A stretch of 64,000 nucleotides of DNA. Origin: a virus. How positions within the stretch are numbered: the first letter of the stretch is position 1; each line of letters opens with the position of its first letter. The position numbers and the translations under genes are program-made. The stretch is from the IMG/VR virus record IMGVR_UViG_3300009104_000002, positions 1-64,000 of that record; one strand, 5' to 3'. Shown here one piece after another: positions 28,885 to 42,362 of this stretch. The notes below the pieces were generated by a model. The model saw only the letters and a list, made by a program, of their open reading frames with translations. It was not told the origin of the DNA and ran no database searches.

Positions 28885-29265
28885 TTAACAATCTCTGATA
28901 GTTGTATTTAATAGTACGTTTTCATTGGGTTCTGGTTCCTCCCACGATACTCCACTTTGAACCACTTCTTTCCCTTCTGGGCGATAAGCAAGTTCCCACC
29001 TGTATACTTCATGGTCTATATACTCTAGGGGGATAGTGAAGGTTGAACCTGGATTATTGAGGTCAGAACTCTGGGTAAAATCTCTATAAACGATATGTAA
29101 GGTTAAATCTGTATAATCATTTATATATTCATTATTGGCCTCGGAACTTTGTTTTGCGAGAACGAGGTATTTACCAATTACTTCGCCGTTTTTGGGATGG
29201 TCGGCGCGATTGGCGATACAAACTATCATATCACCGGGCTTCGCATTTTCAAGGTTCCAACTCAT
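28885..29265 (-). CDS. SH3/KOW-like early protein
   Basis: AKPGDMIVC...KYLVL...NPGSTF...WEL...VQSGVSWEE. Confidence 0.7.
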   Translation of the reverse strand: MSWNLENAKPGDMIVCIANRADHPKNGEVIGKYLVLAKQSSEANNEYINDYTDLTLHIVYRDFTQSSDLNNPGSTFTIPLEYIDHEVYRWELAYRPEGKEVVQSGVSWEEPEPNENVLLNTTIRDC

Positions 29266-29541
29266 TTATTTGTTCTTCCCTCGAACTCTTTCGGGTTCGA
29301 CGTAAGCGTAGTTTCTACCTGTATATTTGCCCACCGAAATATCCACCTTGATAACTTCTTTATCGTGGATTGTCAAACGCTCCAAAGCCCGCTTTGTAAC
29401 TTGGATATAGTTACAAGGCAAGCGGGTGTTGTTCAAGAGGACGGGCACCGAAAAGGTAGTTTTTTTCTGCCTTTTGAGCCAGTGATGAAACGACTCGGTG
29501 TCGTTGAAAGTCAAGGTTTTTCCTAGATTATCGTCTGACAT
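29266..29541 (-). CDS. hypothetical protein (start MSDDNL)
   Basis: GAGGGG RBS. Confidence 0.65.
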   Translation of the reverse strand: MSDDNLGKTLTFNDTESFHHWLKRQKKTTFSVPVLLNNTRLPCNYIQVTKRALERLTIHDKEVIKVDISVGKYTGRNYAYVEPERVRGKNK

Positions 29542-29542
29542 A

Positions 29543-29965
29543 TTATAGCCCCTCAACGTCTGCATCGATGTTGGCGGCCATAACGTCGGATAAAACTCCG
29601 TTTTTGTTCTTTGAGTCAATCCAATTGCACCATGCTTCTCGGCGAGCGGGGCCGTCAACGATTCCATCTTGCTCATATTGGGCTTTGATATGGGGTAATT
29701 CGACCTCCTCGAATTCCCGTATTGCTAACTGGGTTTTCTTCGCAAGCTCGGCGTCGAACGCATCTGTTACGGTTTCAAGCATATTATCGGCCAGTTCCTC
29801 GATGTCGCCTTCAAAGGCGGATAATGCGTCATAGGAAACATCGGATGCTTCGATGGTTTTATCCAAGGTATAAAGCTCGTTTTCGAGCGTTTCCTCAATG
29901 GCGGCGTGGATAGCGGATAATAGGGCGGCGTGAATATTGCTGATTTGGTCGGTTGAAAGGGTCAT
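29543..29965 (-). CDS. acidic hypothetical protein (start MTLSTD)
   Basis: AGGAG RBS; ARREAWCNWIDS motif. Confidence 0.7.
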   Translation of the reverse strand: MTLSTDQISNIHAALLSAIHAAIEETLENELYTLDKTIEASDVSYDALSAFEGDIEELADNMLETVTDAFDAELAKKTQLAIREFEEVELPHIKAQYEQDGIVDGPARREAWCNWIDSKNKNGVLSDVMAANIDADVEGL

Positions 29966-30017
29966 GTGATAGGCTCCTGAAAAGTAAGTTTTAAATTGGT
30001 TTATTGAAGGGTGTCGA

Positions 30018-30164
30018 TTATTGTTGAGTTTCGCGGCGGGTTTTGAGCCGGTTAAGGCATTTCTTAATTGGGTCGTCGGCGTCATCTTCGAGGGCATAGC
30101 CGACGAGAAGGGCGGCGCTGATTATCACCGGCAAAACTATAATAAGAAGAAGTAATGTTATCAT
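30018..30164 (-). CDS. 48-aa single-TM protein
   Basis: GAGG RBS; MITLLLLIIVLPVIISAALLVGYALEDD... Confidence 0.55.
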   Translation of the reverse strand: MITLLLLIIVLPVIISAALLVGYALEDDADDPIKKCLNRLKTRRETQQ

Positions 30165-30177
30165 TTGTGGCCTCGGA

Positions 30178-30432
30178 TTATCGGGTTTCTAAGCCGGTAA
30201 CTTCCTGAATCTCGGAAGGACTGGCGGGGACGGTTGTGAAGTTAGAAGGGTGATAATTGCGAACTGCCGCATTACGGTGCTTGTTAGTAGTATTTGAATA
30301 CTTCTTCGAATTAACCAAGGTCAAACCTTCCTTATGAAGGACGACGACCTGCGGGACGCCGTAGCTCAAAAGCGCCCTGAAAACTGGGGTTTCGATGAGT
30401 GTTTGATTGGATGCGATGTTAGTGATTTTCAT
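30178..30432 (-). CDS. conserved-type phage early protein (LSYG...KYSNTTNKH)
   Basis: Motif typical of small phage proteins; start MKITN. Confidence 0.65.
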   Translation of the reverse strand: MKITNIASNQTLIETPVFRALLSYGVPQVVVLHKEGLTLVNSKKYSNTTNKHRNAAVRNYHPSNFTTVPASPSEIQEVTGLETR

Positions 30433-30596
30433 GGTTGAAAGTACCTTATGAATGAGTGAGTGATAGTTGATTGAGGGTTGGGTGAAAAGTAAGGTTAAAG
30501 GTGGCTTTTGCCGATTGGGGGCGCGACTTCCAAGCATAACGCGCTTATGTAAACGTCATCGACGGTGAATCCTCCAAAGCTAGGGGTGAAAGGTGA

Positions 30597-30797
30597 TTAT
30601 CGAGCGGGCTGAACGTCGTAACCGTACTGCTGCAAAAGGTTGATTGCATGCACCAAATCGACATCATCGATTTGGTCGGGCCGGATTCGGTAATTCTCGG
30701 AAACGATACCGTTGTGGACGGCGCACGCGGCGGTACGGACCTCGAAGGCTGAAAAGCCGGGAATAACGTGACCATCTGGAAGGGTGAGATTATACAT
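30597..30797 (-). CDS. hypothetical protein (start MYNLTL)
   Basis: GGAG RBS downstream of a promoter cassette. Confidence 0.65.
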   Translation of the reverse strand: MYNLTLPDGHVIPGFSAFEVRTAACAVHNGIVSENYRIRPDQIDDVDLVHAINLLQQYGYDVQPAR

Positions 30798-30880
30798 AGA
30801 AGAAACTCCAATATCGCGCACGCGAGCGAGAAGCGCGAAGGAAGGGTAAAAAGTTGTGAACTGCTCGATTTCATATACAT

Positions 30881-40565: not shown

Positions 40566-40589
40566 GGGTTTCTCCCTTTGTGTACCTAT

Positions 40590-40644
40590 ATTATACACGC
40601 TGGCGCGCTGCTTGTCTACTAAAAAGTTGTAAAGAAAATGTCAA
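40590..40644 (-). promoter_or_regulatory. triple-box early promoter cassette (-35 TAGACA)
   Basis: attata at 40590; boxes at 40614, 40629, 40640. Confidence 0.85.
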
Positions 40645-40880
40645 GAGATTATTTTCCAATAAAAATTGTTCGGCGTATCTTCTTCGGAGTCGATAGTTGA
40701 AACAAGTATATCGCTGACTCCACCCACACAGTGAGCGACGTCGGCATAGTAAGTAAACAAAACATAAGTTTCCAACCACTCATCATCCACAGATAAAATT
40801 AAGTGACGGTCTAACTCTTCTTCTTCCTCTGGTGGGAACCTGCAACAATGCGAGATTATTTGTCCTACTTCAAGTTTCAT
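40641..40880 (-). CDS. SH3/KOW-like early protein
   Basis: MKLEVGQIISH...RHLIL...LETYVLF...YWKII. Confidence 0.7.
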   Translation of the reverse strand: MKLEVGQIISHCCRFPPEEEEELDRHLILSVDDEWLETYVLFTYYADVAHCVGGVSDILVSTIDSEEDTPNNFYWKIIS

Positions 40881-41157
40881 TGTTTTTCTCGATAATATAC
40901 ATATCAACTGGCAATTCGTCTAGCGGAATCCATCGAGCAAAGCCGGGTTCGGGTAGGCGGTGAGCATAAATGGCGACACAAAAGGCGTTTTGGCCAACGA
41001 TTTTCAGCACTAGATACTTTCTCGCAACCCTATCCTCCGGGTAATAGCCATTCGCCCTATACAATGAGCCGATAATGTCTCCGACTCTGACCTCGTAGGG
41101 GTTGAATGTTATAAAATTCTCTGGCAATTTCAGTGGTTCAGTTTCAACGTACAGCAT
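40870..41157 (-). CDS. SH3/KOW-like early protein
   Basis: VRVGDIIGS...KYLVLKI; AGGAG RBS. Confidence 0.7.
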   Translation of the reverse strand: MLYVETEPLKLPENFITFNPYEVRVGDIIGSLYRANGYYPEDRVARKYLVLKIVGQNAFCVAIYAHRLPEPGFARWIPLDELPVDMYIIEKNNET

Positions 41158-41396
41158 TATATTCTCCTTAGATCGATGGTTCTTTTTAAGTAAGTGTCGC
41201 CCGCTACATAATCTGAATCGCCGGAAGCATAGCAAGCGCAGCGGATGTAAAGGTCGCCGCGTGGTGGGTGGTTGGACATAATCGGGTCATCGATAACGAA
41301 GAAGCGAGGGCTACATTCCTCGTCTACTTCACCACAGCAGGAACACCATTGGTCAATGATTACGTTATCACCTTTCTGAATTATCCGATTAAACAA
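41157..41396 (-). CDS. small Cys-containing SH3/KOW-like protein (TTG start)
   Basis: IQKGDNVII...CSCC...FFVID; GGAG RBS. Confidence 0.6.
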   Translation of the reverse strand: MFNRIIQKGDNVIIDQWCSCCGEVDEECSPRFFVIDDPIMSNHPPRGDLYIRCACYASGDSDYVAGDTYLKRTIDLRRI

Positions 41397-41423
41397 TGTG
41401 GGTTCTCCGCTTTCTGTACCTAC

Positions 41424-41478
41424 ATTATACACGCTGGCGCGGTGCTCGTCAAGAACTAAATTGTCAAGAGAATGTCAA
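41424..41478 (-). promoter_or_regulatory. triple-box early promoter cassette
   Basis: attata at 41424; boxes at 41448, 41463, 41474. Confidence 0.85.
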
Positions 41479-41639
41479 GAACTTTTTGTTAAGATTTCAG
41501 GGTGTTTATTGACAAATGCTATAAAATCTTCAAGAGCATCCTCGATTTCCTTCCTGTAGAAAGCAGTGACGGGGCGGTCGGCCCTCCTTCGCTCTTCCCG
41601 TAGAAGCTGGAGAATCAGTTGTTGTGTTTCATATCGCAT
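41475..41639 (-). CDS. 54-aa helical protein
   Basis: MRYETQQLILQLLREERRR...; manual translation. Confidence 0.55.
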   Translation of the reverse strand: MRYETQQLILQLLREERRRADRPVTAFYRKEIEDALEDFIAFVNKHPEILTKSS

Positions 41640-42012
41640 AGGTTACACCGTATGCCGTGAAGTAGTCAATGCAATATTCGTCAGTTATGTGGCCACGAAT
41701 GGCTGACTTGGTTCGTGTCTCGGGCTGCTTCCACGTTGCTGCACGGAAAATTGCGCCATCCTTTCGACGGATGAAGCCGTATACGGAAGCCGAGTTTCCA
41801 CCGAAATCATTTTGATTTTCGAGGATCAATTTATAATACACACGACCTTTTTGGACCGTCAGGACGGGCGGGTTGGATTCCGAAAGGAATGTTTTACCCA
41901 TGACAATCTGTGGGCTGGCGTGTTGACTATAATTTATATTGACCTTCGCCTGGATCTGCGGCAACAACTCATTGAGGGTGTGCTCGATTTCTAACTCTGA
42001 ATACTCTGACAT
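41629..42012 (-). CDS. widespread-type phage early protein (YYKL...SVYGFI...GAIFRAATWKQP)
   Basis: Motif pattern; GGAG RBS. Confidence 0.7.
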   Translation of the reverse strand: MSEYSELEIEHTLNELLPQIQAKVNINYSQHASPQIVMGKTFLSESNPPVLTVQKGRVYYKLILENQNDFGGNSASVYGFIRRKDGAIFRAATWKQPETRTKSAIRGHITDEYCIDYFTAYGVTYAI

Positions 42013-42089
42013 AAAAACTCCAAAAGATAAATTCTATGTTAATAATATAACACAAATGAAGCAGTTTGTCCAGTCTTTTTTTAAAAAAA

Positions 42090-42362
42090 TTATACTTTTT
42101 CCAAAAATAAGGGTATATCCTCTGGGTTCTTATAAAGCTCTATAGCTCGACGGTGCCAGAAGGAATATATTTTTATTGATATAACGGGAGTATAGAGTTT
42201 TAAGTTATCATAGGGATCCTCTATCACCTCCTGAGAAAAAATATATTCTCCGCCCTCTATCAATTTTTCTGATTCTATGACAATGCCATAACAATAGTCA
42301 ACTTTTTCACTAGCTGATTTCCACCTCACAATATCCCCAACATTGTAAGTTTGCGACTTCAC
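42090..42362 (-). CDS. SH3/KOW-like protein
   Basis: YNVGDIVRW...YGIVI. Confidence 0.65.
   Translation of the reverse strand: MKSQTYNVGDIVRWKSASEKVDYCYGIVIESEKLIEGGEYIFSQEVIEDPYDNLKLYTPVISIKIYSFWHRRAIELYKNPEDIPLFLEKV

What the first reader, a model, noticed from the sequence alone, without database searches (positions are those of the whole stretch)
28885..42362. Expanded, highly diversified family of about 15 small SH3/KOW-like proteins in the early region
Many 57-126-aa ORFs open with [FLI]x[VPIA]G[DQN][ILF][IVL], followed by a hydrophobic strand (RYLVL, RHIII, EGIIV). Several continue with a PG turn and a terminal W[RK]. Clear pairs exist: 28885/31035 share SG.SWE and 38225/38475 share MKFKPGNLL...NEV. 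A tandem-amplified small beta-barrel scaffold under strong immediate-early promoters looks like a diversified binder repertoire, such as anti-defence proteins, nucleic-acid or ribosome binders, or decoys. No mutagenic mechanism (RT) is visible.
Basis: partly seen in the sequence, partly recalled or inferred. Interest (0 to 1): 0.7.

Follow-up and report, generated by a model that had tools for sequence, protein, structure and literature searches.

The report
Phage family of small SH3-like proteins
An uncultured 190-kb T4-type phage carries 12 to 15 diverged copies of one uncatalogued small SH3-like barrel protein in its early region; related phages gain, lose and move copies, and what the proteins bind is unknown.

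Summary
The N-terminal motif hits 12 of 35 genes at 28.8-42.4 kb and 1 of 187 elsewhere in the genome (p = 4e-10).

Membership:
- 12 ORFs are one family. Iterative profiles pulled in 0 of 1276 decoys. With its motif deleted and its own subfamily left out, 10 of these still outrank all 1725 genome ORFs.
- 3 ORFs (39718, 42090, 40870) share only the N-terminal motif.
- ORF 41157 shows no link.

Two AlphaFold models from independent alignments (pLDDT 88) are five-stranded SH3-like barrels. They retrieve the same KOW, Tudor and Sm-type neighbours at modest scores (Z 5-7.6).

No Pfam, PHROG, NCBIfam or PDB sequence match exists. A profile search of 1.84 billion proteins found 70 hits, 69 of them close to this phage clade.

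Related phages carry 14-17 copies in two variable islands flanking a MoxR-ATPase/VWA gene pair. The 96 copies fall into 45 subfamilies. The core is conserved and the loops vary. Omega is below 1. No reverse transcriptase is present.

The setting is a T4-type hyperplastic region with nine repeated early promoters. T4 GoF/MotB.1/Frd.2 is the closest published analogue in fold, not in sequence.

Function is untested; an early-expressed set of binding proteins is an inference. This scan has already reported similar arrays in many other phage genomes, including a relative of this one.

The parts
28885..29265 (-). Firm family member (126 aa, acidic, with a long insertion in the barrel)
   Evidence: Leave-subfamily-out HMM E = 4e-9; E = 9e-8 with the motif removed; HHalign 96% to 31035.
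31035..31256 (-). Firm family member (73 aa)
   Evidence: Leave-out E = 0.002; E = 6e-4 with the motif removed; iterative HMM links it to 28885, 31232 and 40641.
31232..31510 (-). Firm family member (92 aa, basic)
   Evidence: HHalign 94% to 31888 and 80% to 40641; leave-out E = 4e-4; with the motif removed 13.5 bits, against 5.3 for the best non-family ORF.
31647..31907 (-). Firm family member (86 aa, acidic)
   Evidence: HHalign 94% to 31888; leave-out E = 6e-6; 13.5 bits with the motif removed.
31888..32145 (-). Firm family member, syntenic 'anchor' (subfamily F4). It lies directly after, and overlaps, the DUF2201/VWA gene in the six related loci that cover that position, and in L008.
   Evidence: Orthologues at the same position in L001-L004, L006 and L008. 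AlphaFold2 model pLDDT 88.4, pTM 0.77, all-beta. SH3-like structural neighbours.
37631..37849 (-). Firm family member (72 aa, basic)
   Evidence: HHalign 90% to 39506; leave-out E = 2e-4; with the motif removed 11.1 bits against 7.4.
37839..38039 (-). Family member (66 aa), linked through 38029
   Evidence: HHalign 67% to 38029; leave-out E = 2e-4. The link is lost when the motif is removed. Its 5' end is 88% identical in DNA to that of 38029.
38029..38235 (-). Firm family member (68 aa)
   Evidence: HHalign 95% to 38475 and 82% to 38225; leave-out E = 9e-6; 13.2 bits with the motif removed.
38225..38491 (-). Firm family member (88 aa), paralogue of 38475. Its closest orthologues in L002, L004 and L006 lie in the other variable island.
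   Evidence: BLASTP E = 2e-6 to 38475. Orthologues at 56-58% identity lie after the VWA gene in L002, L004 and L006.
38475..38729 (-). Firm family member (84 aa)
   Evidence: AlphaFold2 model from its own subfamily alignment only: pLDDT 88.2, pTM 0.76, five strands plus a short helix before the last strand. Neighbours include EF-P domain I, eIF5A, Tudor and KOW domains. Leave-out E = 8e-6.
39506..39721 (-). Firm family member (71 aa)
   Evidence: HHalign 90% to 37631; leave-out E = 2e-6; E = 0.006 with the motif removed.
40641..40907 (-). Firm family member (the likely start at the internal ATG gives about 79 aa; acidic)
   Evidence: HHalign 80% to 31232, 62% to 38475 and 56% to 31035; leave-out E = 1e-6; 13.5 bits with the motif removed.
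39718..39891 (-). Possible member (57 aa), linked by the N-terminal motif only
   Evidence: Leave-out E = 0.011, above every non-family ORF. No signal with the motif removed. Sub-threshold YccV-like hit.
42090..42362 (-). Possible member, syntenic 'anchor' (subfamily F5) directly after the nucleotidyltransferase gene in the five related loci that cover that position (L001-L004, L006)
   Evidence: Orthologues at 31-42% identity at the same position. Leave-out 11.5 bits against 9.9 for the best non-family ORF. No signal with the motif removed. The Atlas's nearest named clusters are R67 DHFR, DsrB and SH3-C_UBE2O, at low scores.
40870..41157 (-). Motif-bearing ORF (95 aa from the ATG at 41157) whose membership is not supported
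   Evidence: Profile E = 2.7-7; HHalign at most 13%; Atlas uninformative.
41157..41432 (-). Its first codons lie inside the -10 box of a promoter repeat.
   Evidence: HHalign at most 8% to any member; absent from the family HMM hits; promoter repeat at 41399-41480.
33476..33557 (-). Copy of the 82-nt early-promoter repeat. It heads the operon VWA gene, 31888, 31647, 31232, 31035.
   Evidence: Repeat family D1; promoter scan 10 of 12.
38997..39078 (-). Copy of the 82-nt early-promoter repeat. It heads the operon 38735, 38475, 38225, 38029, 37839, 37631, 37390.
   Evidence: Repeat family D1; TTGACC-17-TATAAT, 11 of 12.
40244..40325 (-). Copy of the 82-nt early-promoter repeat. It heads the operon 39892, 39718, 39506, 39245.
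   Evidence: Repeat family D1; 11 of 12.
41399..41480 (-). Copy of the 82-nt early-promoter repeat. It heads the unit with 40870 and 40641.
   Evidence: Repeat family D1; TTGACG-17-TATAAT, 11 of 12.
32129..34780 (-). Conserved MoxR-like AAA ATPase (33626-34780) and DUF2201 metallopeptidase-like/VWA protein (32129-33475). The two variable islands flank this pair.
   Evidence: Pfam AAA_5, DUF2201_N and DUF2201. 83-92% and 70-81% identical in related loci. Synteny map.

Best explanation
SHOWN. The region is a hyperplastic early region of an uncultured, distantly T4-type myovirus. Twelve firm and up to three further small genes there belong to one clade-specific, uncatalogued family of single-domain proteins. 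Two members from distant branches are predicted to fold as five-stranded SH3-like (KOW/Tudor/Sm-class) small beta-barrels. The hydrophobic core and a few turn residues are conserved: G-[DQN] before strand 1, a P-G turn, and an aromatic residue (mostly Trp) at strand 5. The loops vary in length and sequence, above all the strand 2-strand 3 loop. The genes follow other genes in their operons, behind nine copies of a near-consensus sigma-70-type promoter repeat. Many are chained by an 11-nt start/stop overlap. Related phages keep the surrounding core genes in order but differ in which copies they carry, how many, and where. Orthologues evolve under purifying selection but several times faster than the neighbouring enzymes.

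INFERRED. The family grew by duplication, divergence and recombinational shuffling of whole genes, without a mutagenic (RT) system. The products are made early and act as small binding modules, each copy with its own target among host or competitor macromolecules (host takeover or counter-defence).
For: One family:
- Iterative HMMs link 13 of the 15 candidates tested. They pull in 0 of 1276 decoys and no other gene of the 190-kb genome.
- HHalign between candidates reaches 50-96%; against 14 neighbouring control families it is at most 2%.
- With its own subfamily left out, 13 of 15 outrank all 1725 genome ORFs. With the motif also removed, 10 of 15 still do.

Fold:
- Two models have pLDDT 88.4 and 88.2; the second was built from its own subfamily alignment only.
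- Both retrieve EF-P domain I, eIF5A, the TraI SH3-like subdomain, PcrA/UvrD and CarD Tudor domains, LSm and the MscS beta domain. 25 of the top 50 entries are shared; Z 4.5-7.6.

Scaffold pattern: G17 is invariant and core positions are 90-100% hydrophobic. Insertions after position 45 average 8.4 residues (maximum 28).

Early expression: nine 82-nt promoter repeats, eight matching the consensus at 11 of 12 positions.

Turnover:
- The 96 members found in the window and seven related loci fall into 45 subfamilies, 24 of them singletons, in two islands between conserved genes.
- The orthologue of 38225 lies in the other island in three relatives.
- In a complete relative all 15 hits lie within 13 kb.

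Constraint: omega is 0.11-0.45 (one 0.77), against 0.03-0.14 for the ATPase and VWA genes.

No RT is present. Isoelectric points range from 4.3 to 9.6, which fits varied targets better than one nucleic-acid ligand.
Against: No functional evidence of any kind was obtained.

Structural matches are modest (best Z 7.6; best Foldseek E = 0.018 in the PDB and 0.001 in BFVD). The tool notes say such values can reflect only a common arrangement. A shared fold does not give a function.

Synonymous sites are saturated in most comparisons and no omega exceeds 1, so positive selection on the loops is not shown.

Early timing rests on promoter consensus only. Three listed ORFs are tied to the family by the motif alone.
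Confidence: 0.5

Rival explanations
1. [quoted passage not shown] The copies differ in which transcripts they stabilise or silence.
For: Both models have LSm and Edc3 neighbours (Z 4.8-5.2) and KOW and EF-P neighbours (Z 5.3-6.2), which are nucleic-acid or ribosome-associated barrels. The T4 analogue family is early-expressed, and one mutant raises mRNA stability (PMC12152347). 27 of the 96 members are basic, with pI above 8.
Against: 46 of the 96 members are acidic, with pI below 6. The models lack the N-terminal helix usual in Sm/Hfq proteins. There is no detectable sequence relation to GoF or MotB.1 (HHalign below 1%). In the cited paper wild-type GoF and MotB.1 had no effect on the reporter.
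Confidence: 0.17
2. The conserved member 31888 (F4), and by descent the family, works with the adjacent MoxR-ATPase/VWA module as an adaptor or substrate. The variable copies are alternative adaptors for that chaperone-like machine.
For: The arrays flank the MoxR/VWA pair in every related locus that covers those positions. F4 lies directly after the VWA gene, with an 8- or 17-nt overlap, in the window, in the five related loci that cover that position (L001-L004, L006) and in L008.
Against: Short overlaps are general in these arrays: 26 of 46 family junctions overlap by 11 or 4 nt. So the overlap is not specific to F4. Adjacency alone is weak evidence. No interaction was tested.
Confidence: 0.1
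3. The similarity is not common descent. Unrelated small ORFs converged on the same N-terminal residues because the start of each gene must also encode the stop of the gene before it and a translation-initiation region.
For: 18 of 46 adjacent family junctions share an 11-nt dual-frame overlap that fixes M-K/E-F/L-K/E at the start. ORFs 39718, 42090, 40870 and 37839 lose their profile link when the motif is removed.
Against: With the motif removed and the own subfamily excluded, 10 of 15 members still outrank all 1725 genome ORFs (10.6-30.5 bits against at most 7.7). Two models from independent alignments share the fold. The overlap covers about the first four codons, so it constrains at most the first residue of the seven-residue motif and not its G-[DQN]-hydrophobic core.
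Confidence: 0.08
4. The genes are nearly neutral passengers of a recombination-prone region, with no specific function.
For: Very high turnover: 24 of the 45 subfamilies were seen only once. Published deletions of the analogous T4 genes gave no phenotype under laboratory conditions.
Against: Omega is below 1 in every measurable orthologue pair. Core residues are conserved across 96 copies. Two members are syntenic in every related locus that covers their positions, five each. A relative that CheckV rates complete (G001) has 15 hits and a 92%-complete one (G002) has 11.
Confidence: 0.1

Closest known systems
[quoted passage not shown] 2025, PMC12152347)
   Same: Small early proteins of a T4-type phage. 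They are paralogues that ordinary BLAST does not connect. They have a predicted five-stranded SH3-topology barrel with FeoA, Hfq and LSm-type neighbours. Their function is unknown.
   Different: No detectable sequence relation (HHalign probability below 1% for GoF and MotB.1; Frd.2 not tested). The T4 proteins have an extra C-terminal domain; these are single-domain. T4 has three copies; this phage has 12-15 and its relatives 14-17, with rapid gain, loss and relocation.
Hyperplastic regions of T4-type phages with PeSL (promoter-early stem-loop) repeats that mediate modular shuffling (Comeau, Arbiol and Krisch 2014, PMC4122927)
   Same: Variable small early genes sit between conserved core genes. 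Repeated early-promoter elements separate the gene modules. Gene content differs between close relatives.
   Different: Here most of the variable genes belong to one protein family. The stem-loop half of a PeSL was not shown: terminator-like sites number 19 against 17.5 expected. Many genes are joined by an 11-nt overlap rather than by a promoter repeat.
KOW-type and related SH3-like barrels: EF-P/eIF5A domain I, Spt5/NusG KOW, and the CarD and PcrA/UvrD Tudor-like RNA-polymerase-interacting domains
   Same: Best structural neighbours of both models (Z 4.8-6.2). They share the G-D/E plus hydrophobic first strand and a P-G turn. Two of the 96 members give sub-threshold EFP_N hits (E = 0.004).
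   Different: No member reaches any Pfam threshold for these families. The proteins stand alone rather than forming part of a larger factor. No ribosome or RNA-polymerase contact was tested.
DUF1653 and other uncharacterised small barrel proteins of phages
   Same: The BFVD neighbours of model 2 are small uncharacterised phage proteins and DUF1653 proteins. PDB entry 3be3 (DUF1653) matches at Z 4.5.
   Different: The matches are weak (E at least 0.001). There is no Pfam hit to DUF1653. I know of no report of DUF1653 expanded within one genome (own knowledge; not tested).

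Membership tests
SH3-like small beta-barrel fold class (KOW/Tudor/Sm-type) | Five antiparallel strands forming a small barrel, usually with a short 3-10 helix between strands 4 and 5 | tested here: met
   Model of 38475: strands 8-11, 16-25, 36-44, 61-66, helix 68-71, strand 78-82. Model of 31888: the same order plus one extra N-terminal strand. These are predictions, not solved structures.
SH3-like small beta-barrel fold class (KOW/Tudor/Sm-type) | Structural neighbours are members of that fold class | tested here: met
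   The top VIA rows for both models are EF-P domain I, eIF5A, the TraI SH3-like subdomain, Tudor, LSm, MscS beta, FeoA and R67 DHFR. Z is 4.5-7.6 and 25 of 50 entries are shared. The Z values are modest.
KOW (PF00467) / EFP_N (PF08207) / CarD_TRCF / DUF1653 sequence families | Score above the Pfam gathering threshold | tested here: not met
   No member of the window set or of the 96-member alignment reaches a threshold. The best results are EFP_N at E = 0.004 in 2 of 96 and DUF7686 at 19.6 bits against a cut-off of 24.
T4 GoF/MotB.1/Frd.2 LSm-like family | Sequence-profile relation to GoF or MotB.1 | tested here: not met
   HHalign probability is 0.4% and 0.3%. Frd.2 was not tested.
T4 GoF/MotB.1/Frd.2 LSm-like family | N-terminal barrel joined by a linker to a C-terminal domain | tested here: not met
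   Members are 57-132 aa and the barrel fills both modelled proteins.
Sm/LSm/Hfq proteins | N-terminal alpha-helix followed by a bent five-stranded sheet | tested here: not met
   Neither model has an N-terminal helix of four or more residues.
Sm/LSm/Hfq proteins | Ring-shaped homo-oligomer | not testable with these tools
PeSL-type hyperplastic region of T4-type phages | Repeated early-promoter elements between modules of variable genes | tested here: met
   Nine copies of an 82-nt repeat, eight of them with an 11-of-12 sigma-70 match. Gene content varies between relatives.
PeSL-type hyperplastic region of T4-type phages | Terminator stem-loop joined to the promoter | tested here: inconclusive
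   Terminator-like sites are not enriched (19 against 17.5 expected). The repeats were not folded.
Diversity-generating retroelement | Reverse transcriptase plus a template/variable repeat pair | tested here: not met
   No RVT_1 match in the genome. The only DNA repeats in the region are promoter repeats and one 33-nt 5'-end repeat.

The most novel reading that the evidence does not exclude
The family is a natural library built on one scaffold. A fixed SH3-like core carries hypervariable loops. Copies are encoded as whole-gene cassettes that phages of this clade exchange through promoter repeats and a dual-frame 11-nt joint. This would let each strain assemble its own set of early inhibitors against host defences or key host machines. 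The two syntenic members (after the VWA gene and after the nucleotidyltransferase gene) would be the ancestral, housekeeping copies.
Probability: 0.25. Interest if true: 0.7.

Novelty: new variant of a known kind. Interest (0 to 1): 0.45.

Why it matters
Small early phage proteins are where inhibitors of host defence and host machinery are usually found, and most have no known family. This study groups at least 160 such orphan proteins (96 from the window and related loci, plus 69 of the database hits) into one fold-defined family. The family has a clear core-and-loop pattern and two conserved anchor members. That gives a rational set for binding and counter-defence screens once a host is known.

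It also extends the only published analogue, the three-member T4 GoF family, to a much larger and faster-turning repertoire. The value is tempered in two ways. The function is unknown, and this scan has already met similar arrays in many other uncultured T4-type phages.

Tried and rejected
- Megablast of the region against the phage collection found no match.
- Pfam, PHROGs and NCBIfam scans of window members and of all 96 members found nothing above threshold. A PDB sequence-profile search found nothing.
- A word-indexed homologue search for 42090 returned only the protein itself.
- Atlas look-ups for 42090 and 40870 gave low-score leads only.
- 40870, trimmed to its ATG, was tested against a 163-sequence profile and by phmmer; it was not significant.
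- The C-terminal part of 36284-36877 has a similar-looking motif, but HHalign probability is 0.1%.
- I tested whether the conserved 5' ends could serve generally as recombination homology. Only 1 of 604 within-genome pairs from different subfamilies reaches 80% DNA identity over 33 nt, so this idea was dropped as a general mechanism.
- Gene-wide dN/dS: dS is saturated in most pairs, so nothing can be said about positive selection.
- The family profile found no copies in Microcystis phage Mel-JY01 or Flavobacterium phage immuto_3-5A, the nearest cultured phages by capsid protein.
- In the HHalign matrix the 38225/38475 cell read 0. I suspect a parsing fault but did not check it, and I do not use that cell; BLASTP is the evidence for that pair.
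- Paper searches for the SpoVR/PrkA/phage/chaperonin combination and for DUF1653 with phage found nothing.

Full report
CONTEXT. The window is the first 64 kb of a single 190,479-bp virus record in which almost every gene lies on the minus strand. The genome encodes a DnaE-type polymerase, a GroEL-type chaperonin, a MoxR-like AAA ATPase and a DUF2201 metallopeptidase-like/VWA protein. Its major capsid protein is gp23-like. The nearest cultured phages by that protein are Flavobacterium phage immuto, Microcystis phage Mel-JY01 and Rhodothermus phage RM378, at 44-50% identity. It is therefore a distant T4-type myovirus known only from metagenomes. The stretch 28-42 kb is richer in G+C (42-48%, against 35-42% in most flanking windows) and has near-zero GC skew.

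THE OBSERVATION. All 16 ORFs exist as described. A regular expression for the N-terminal motif hits 12 of 35 tiled genes in 28.8-42.4 kb and 1 of 187 elsewhere (Fisher p = 4e-10). Shuffled versions of the same proteins give 0.1 hits on average. Pairwise BLASTP links only 38225 with 38475 clearly (E = 2e-6), with two further weak pairs, so the family claim needed profiles.

RELATIVES. The ATPase gene retrieved seven related IMG/VR loci at 49-92% identity. I pooled the 222 tiled genes of this genome, 261 genes of those loci and 1276 shuffled or reversed decoys.

ONE FAMILY.
- Iterative HMM searches from each candidate (E below 1e-3 at Z = 5000) joined 13 of the 15 candidates tested into one network of 96 proteins. 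They pulled in no decoy, no protein over 160 aa and no other gene of the genome. Of 40 control seeds, two grew, each picking up only a few unrelated proteins and no candidate ORF.
- HHalign between subfamily alignments gives 50-96% for ten candidate pairs. Every comparison of a candidate with 14 neighbouring non-family genes gives at most 2%.
- When each window member and all its close relatives are left out of the profile, 13 of 15 still outrank all 1725 ORFs of the genome. ORF 42090 is marginal and 40870 fails.
- I then deleted everything up to and including the motif and repeated the leave-out test. Ten of 15 still outrank every non-family ORF, at 10.6-30.5 bits against at most 7.7. The likeness therefore runs through the whole domain and is not only a generic first strand.
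- ORF 38225 joins through its paralogue 38475, and 37839 joins through 38029.
- ORFs 39718, 42090 and 40870 are tied by the motif alone. ORF 41157-41432 shows nothing, and its first codons are part of a promoter repeat.
- No further copy exists elsewhere in the genome.

FOLD. A model of 31888 built on the 96-member alignment has pLDDT 88.4 and pTM 0.77 and is all-beta. A model of 38475 built only on 15 sequences of its own subfamily has pLDDT 88.2 and pTM 0.76. It shows the classic order of four strands, a short helix and a fifth strand. These two subfamilies score only 1% against each other in HHalign, so the second model is an independent test.

Against 48,161 PDB representatives, both models find EF-P domain I, eIF5A, the SH3-like subdomain of TraI, PcrA/UvrD and CarD Tudor domains, Spt5 KOW, LSm/Edc3, the MscS beta domain, FeoA, R67 DHFR and Pelota. 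25 of the top 50 entries are shared, with best Z of 7.6 and 6.2. Foldseek gives only weak rows of the same kind. These scores support the fold class and nothing more specific.

SCAFFOLD PATTERN. On the 96-member alignment the Gly of the motif is invariant. The residues after it, the centres of strands 2, 3 and 4, and the Trp/aromatic at strand 5 are 80-100% conserved in character. Insertions pile up after strand 2 (mean 8.4 residues, maximum 28), after strand 3 and before strand 5. Isoelectric points run from 4.3 to 9.6.

HOW WIDE IS THE FAMILY? No member matches Pfam, PHROGs, NCBIfam or a PDB sequence. A profile search of 1.84 billion representative proteins found 70 hits at E up to 1e-3. All 70 are 63-300 aa. 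69 are close to a subfamily of this phage clade; the exception is a 300-aa protein with three matched stretches in an unrelated phage contig. Database copies are unnamed or 'hypothetical protein' from metagenomes. The two nearest cultured phages have no copy. A complete 193-kb relative has 15, all within 13 kb.

GENOME ANATOMY AND TURNOVER. Nine copies of an 82-nt repeat carry three TTGAC(A) boxes and TATAAT on the minus strand. Eight of them match the sigma-70 consensus at 11 of 12 positions. Each heads a short operon, and the family genes follow another gene within those operons.

Across the window and the related loci the core genes keep their order. The family genes fill two islands: one upstream of the 36284 gene, and one directly after the VWA gene. 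The 96 copies fall into 45 subfamilies at E below 1e-6, 24 of them seen once. Two members are fixed: 31888 directly after the VWA gene and 42090 directly after a nucleotidyltransferase gene. The orthologues of 38225 lie in the other island in three relatives, and the window has two whole extra genes between the orthologues of 38475 and 37839 compared with L006.

Of 46 adjacent family junctions, 18 are an 11-nt overlap of the form ATG-nnn-nTT-(stop). This form fixes the M-K/E-F/L-K/E start of one gene and explains the 'NEV' end of the gene before it. Eight more are ATGA overlaps. DNA identity at the 5' ends is too low to be a general recombination site: only 1 of 604 pairs reaches 80%.

SELECTION. 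Synonymous sites are saturated in most comparisons. Where they can be measured, family orthologues have omega of 0.11-0.45 (one 0.77) and dN of 0.23-0.84. The ATPase and VWA genes have omega of 0.03-0.14 and dN of 0.06-0.19. The genes are thus constrained but fast-evolving. Positive selection is not shown. There is no reverse transcriptase.

WHAT IS KNOWN. The setting matches the hyperplastic regions of T4-type phages, where repeated early-promoter elements (PeSLs) mediate shuffling of small variable genes (PMC4122927). The closest protein analogue is the T4 early family GoF/MotB.1/Frd.2, which has an SH3-topology 'LSm-like' barrel and unknown function (PMC12152347). The present family is not related to GoF or MotB.1 by sequence, lacks their C-terminal domain and is four to five times larger per genome. 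This scan has already recorded similar arrays of SH3/KOW-like mini-genes in many other uncultured phages and in a relative of this genome. This is therefore another, smaller example of a recurring pattern.

MECHANISM. Shown: one family, one predicted fold, a conserved core with variable loops, host-type promoters, high turnover and purifying selection. Inferred: early expression, and action as a set of small binding modules with different targets. The rivals (RNA-binding LSm-like regulators, adaptors of the MoxR/VWA module, convergence forced by the overlap, neutral passengers) are weighed in their own sections.

VERDICT. The SH3/KOW-like reading of the fold is supported. The functional reading is open. 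This is a new sequence family and a larger, faster-turning variant of a known kind of phage early protein, of moderate interest.

Noticed in passing
window 37631-38729 and 40641-41157; L002-L006 arrays: Eighteen of 46 adjacent family genes are joined by an 11-nt overlap (ATG nnn nTT then TAA/TGA/TAG in the other frame). The same bases encode M-K/E-F/L-K/E of one gene and the last residues and stop of the previous gene. This explains the shared 'NEV' ends.
   Followed up: partly
window 38010-38042, 38206-38238, 40851-40883: A 33-nt DNA repeat covers the first codons of 37839, 38029 and 40641. It is 88% identical between the first two genes, whose proteins are otherwise barely alignable. This suggests a recent exchange or duplication at the 5' end.
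   Followed up: partly
window 40320-40598 and 41157-41432: Both ORFs 'start' with GTG TAT AAT GT., which is the -10 box of the promoter repeat. Their N-termini (MYNIGT, MYNVGT) are therefore promoter sequence and the true starts must lie downstream.
   Followed up: partly
window 40320-40598, against genome 130150-130857: Residues 19-85 of the 92-aa ORF are 70% identical to the C-terminal 67 residues of a 235-aa protein encoded 90 kb away (BLASTP E = 3e-33). This is a partial gene duplicate inside the early region.
   Followed up: no
L016:6001-6903 (protein P0064): A 300-aa protein in an unrelated phage contig matches the family profile in three stretches. This suggests a tandem three-domain form. 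It has no Pfam hit.
   Followed up: partly
window 28001-42000: The early region has higher G+C (42-48%) and near-zero GC skew. The rest of the window has 30-45% G+C (one 50% window at the far end) and, in most of it, a GC skew of about -0.1 to -0.28.
   Followed up: no
window 36284-36877: The C-terminal 70 residues of this conserved 197-aa early protein read like the family motif (FDAGSLVQV ... GTIALVV ... YRVEERWLK), but the profile comparison is not significant (0.1%).
   Followed up: yes
window 14450-17038 and 17035-18969: Two adjacent large genes are paralogues: 47% identity over 264 aa, E = 3e-64. Neither has a Pfam hit in the one scan made.
   Followed up: no
window 34897-35703: An early gene with its own promoter repeat encodes two CCHC zinc-knuckle motifs (a Pfam zf-C2H2_10 hit at residues 78-93). 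It is conserved in all related loci at 42-75% identity.
   Followed up: no
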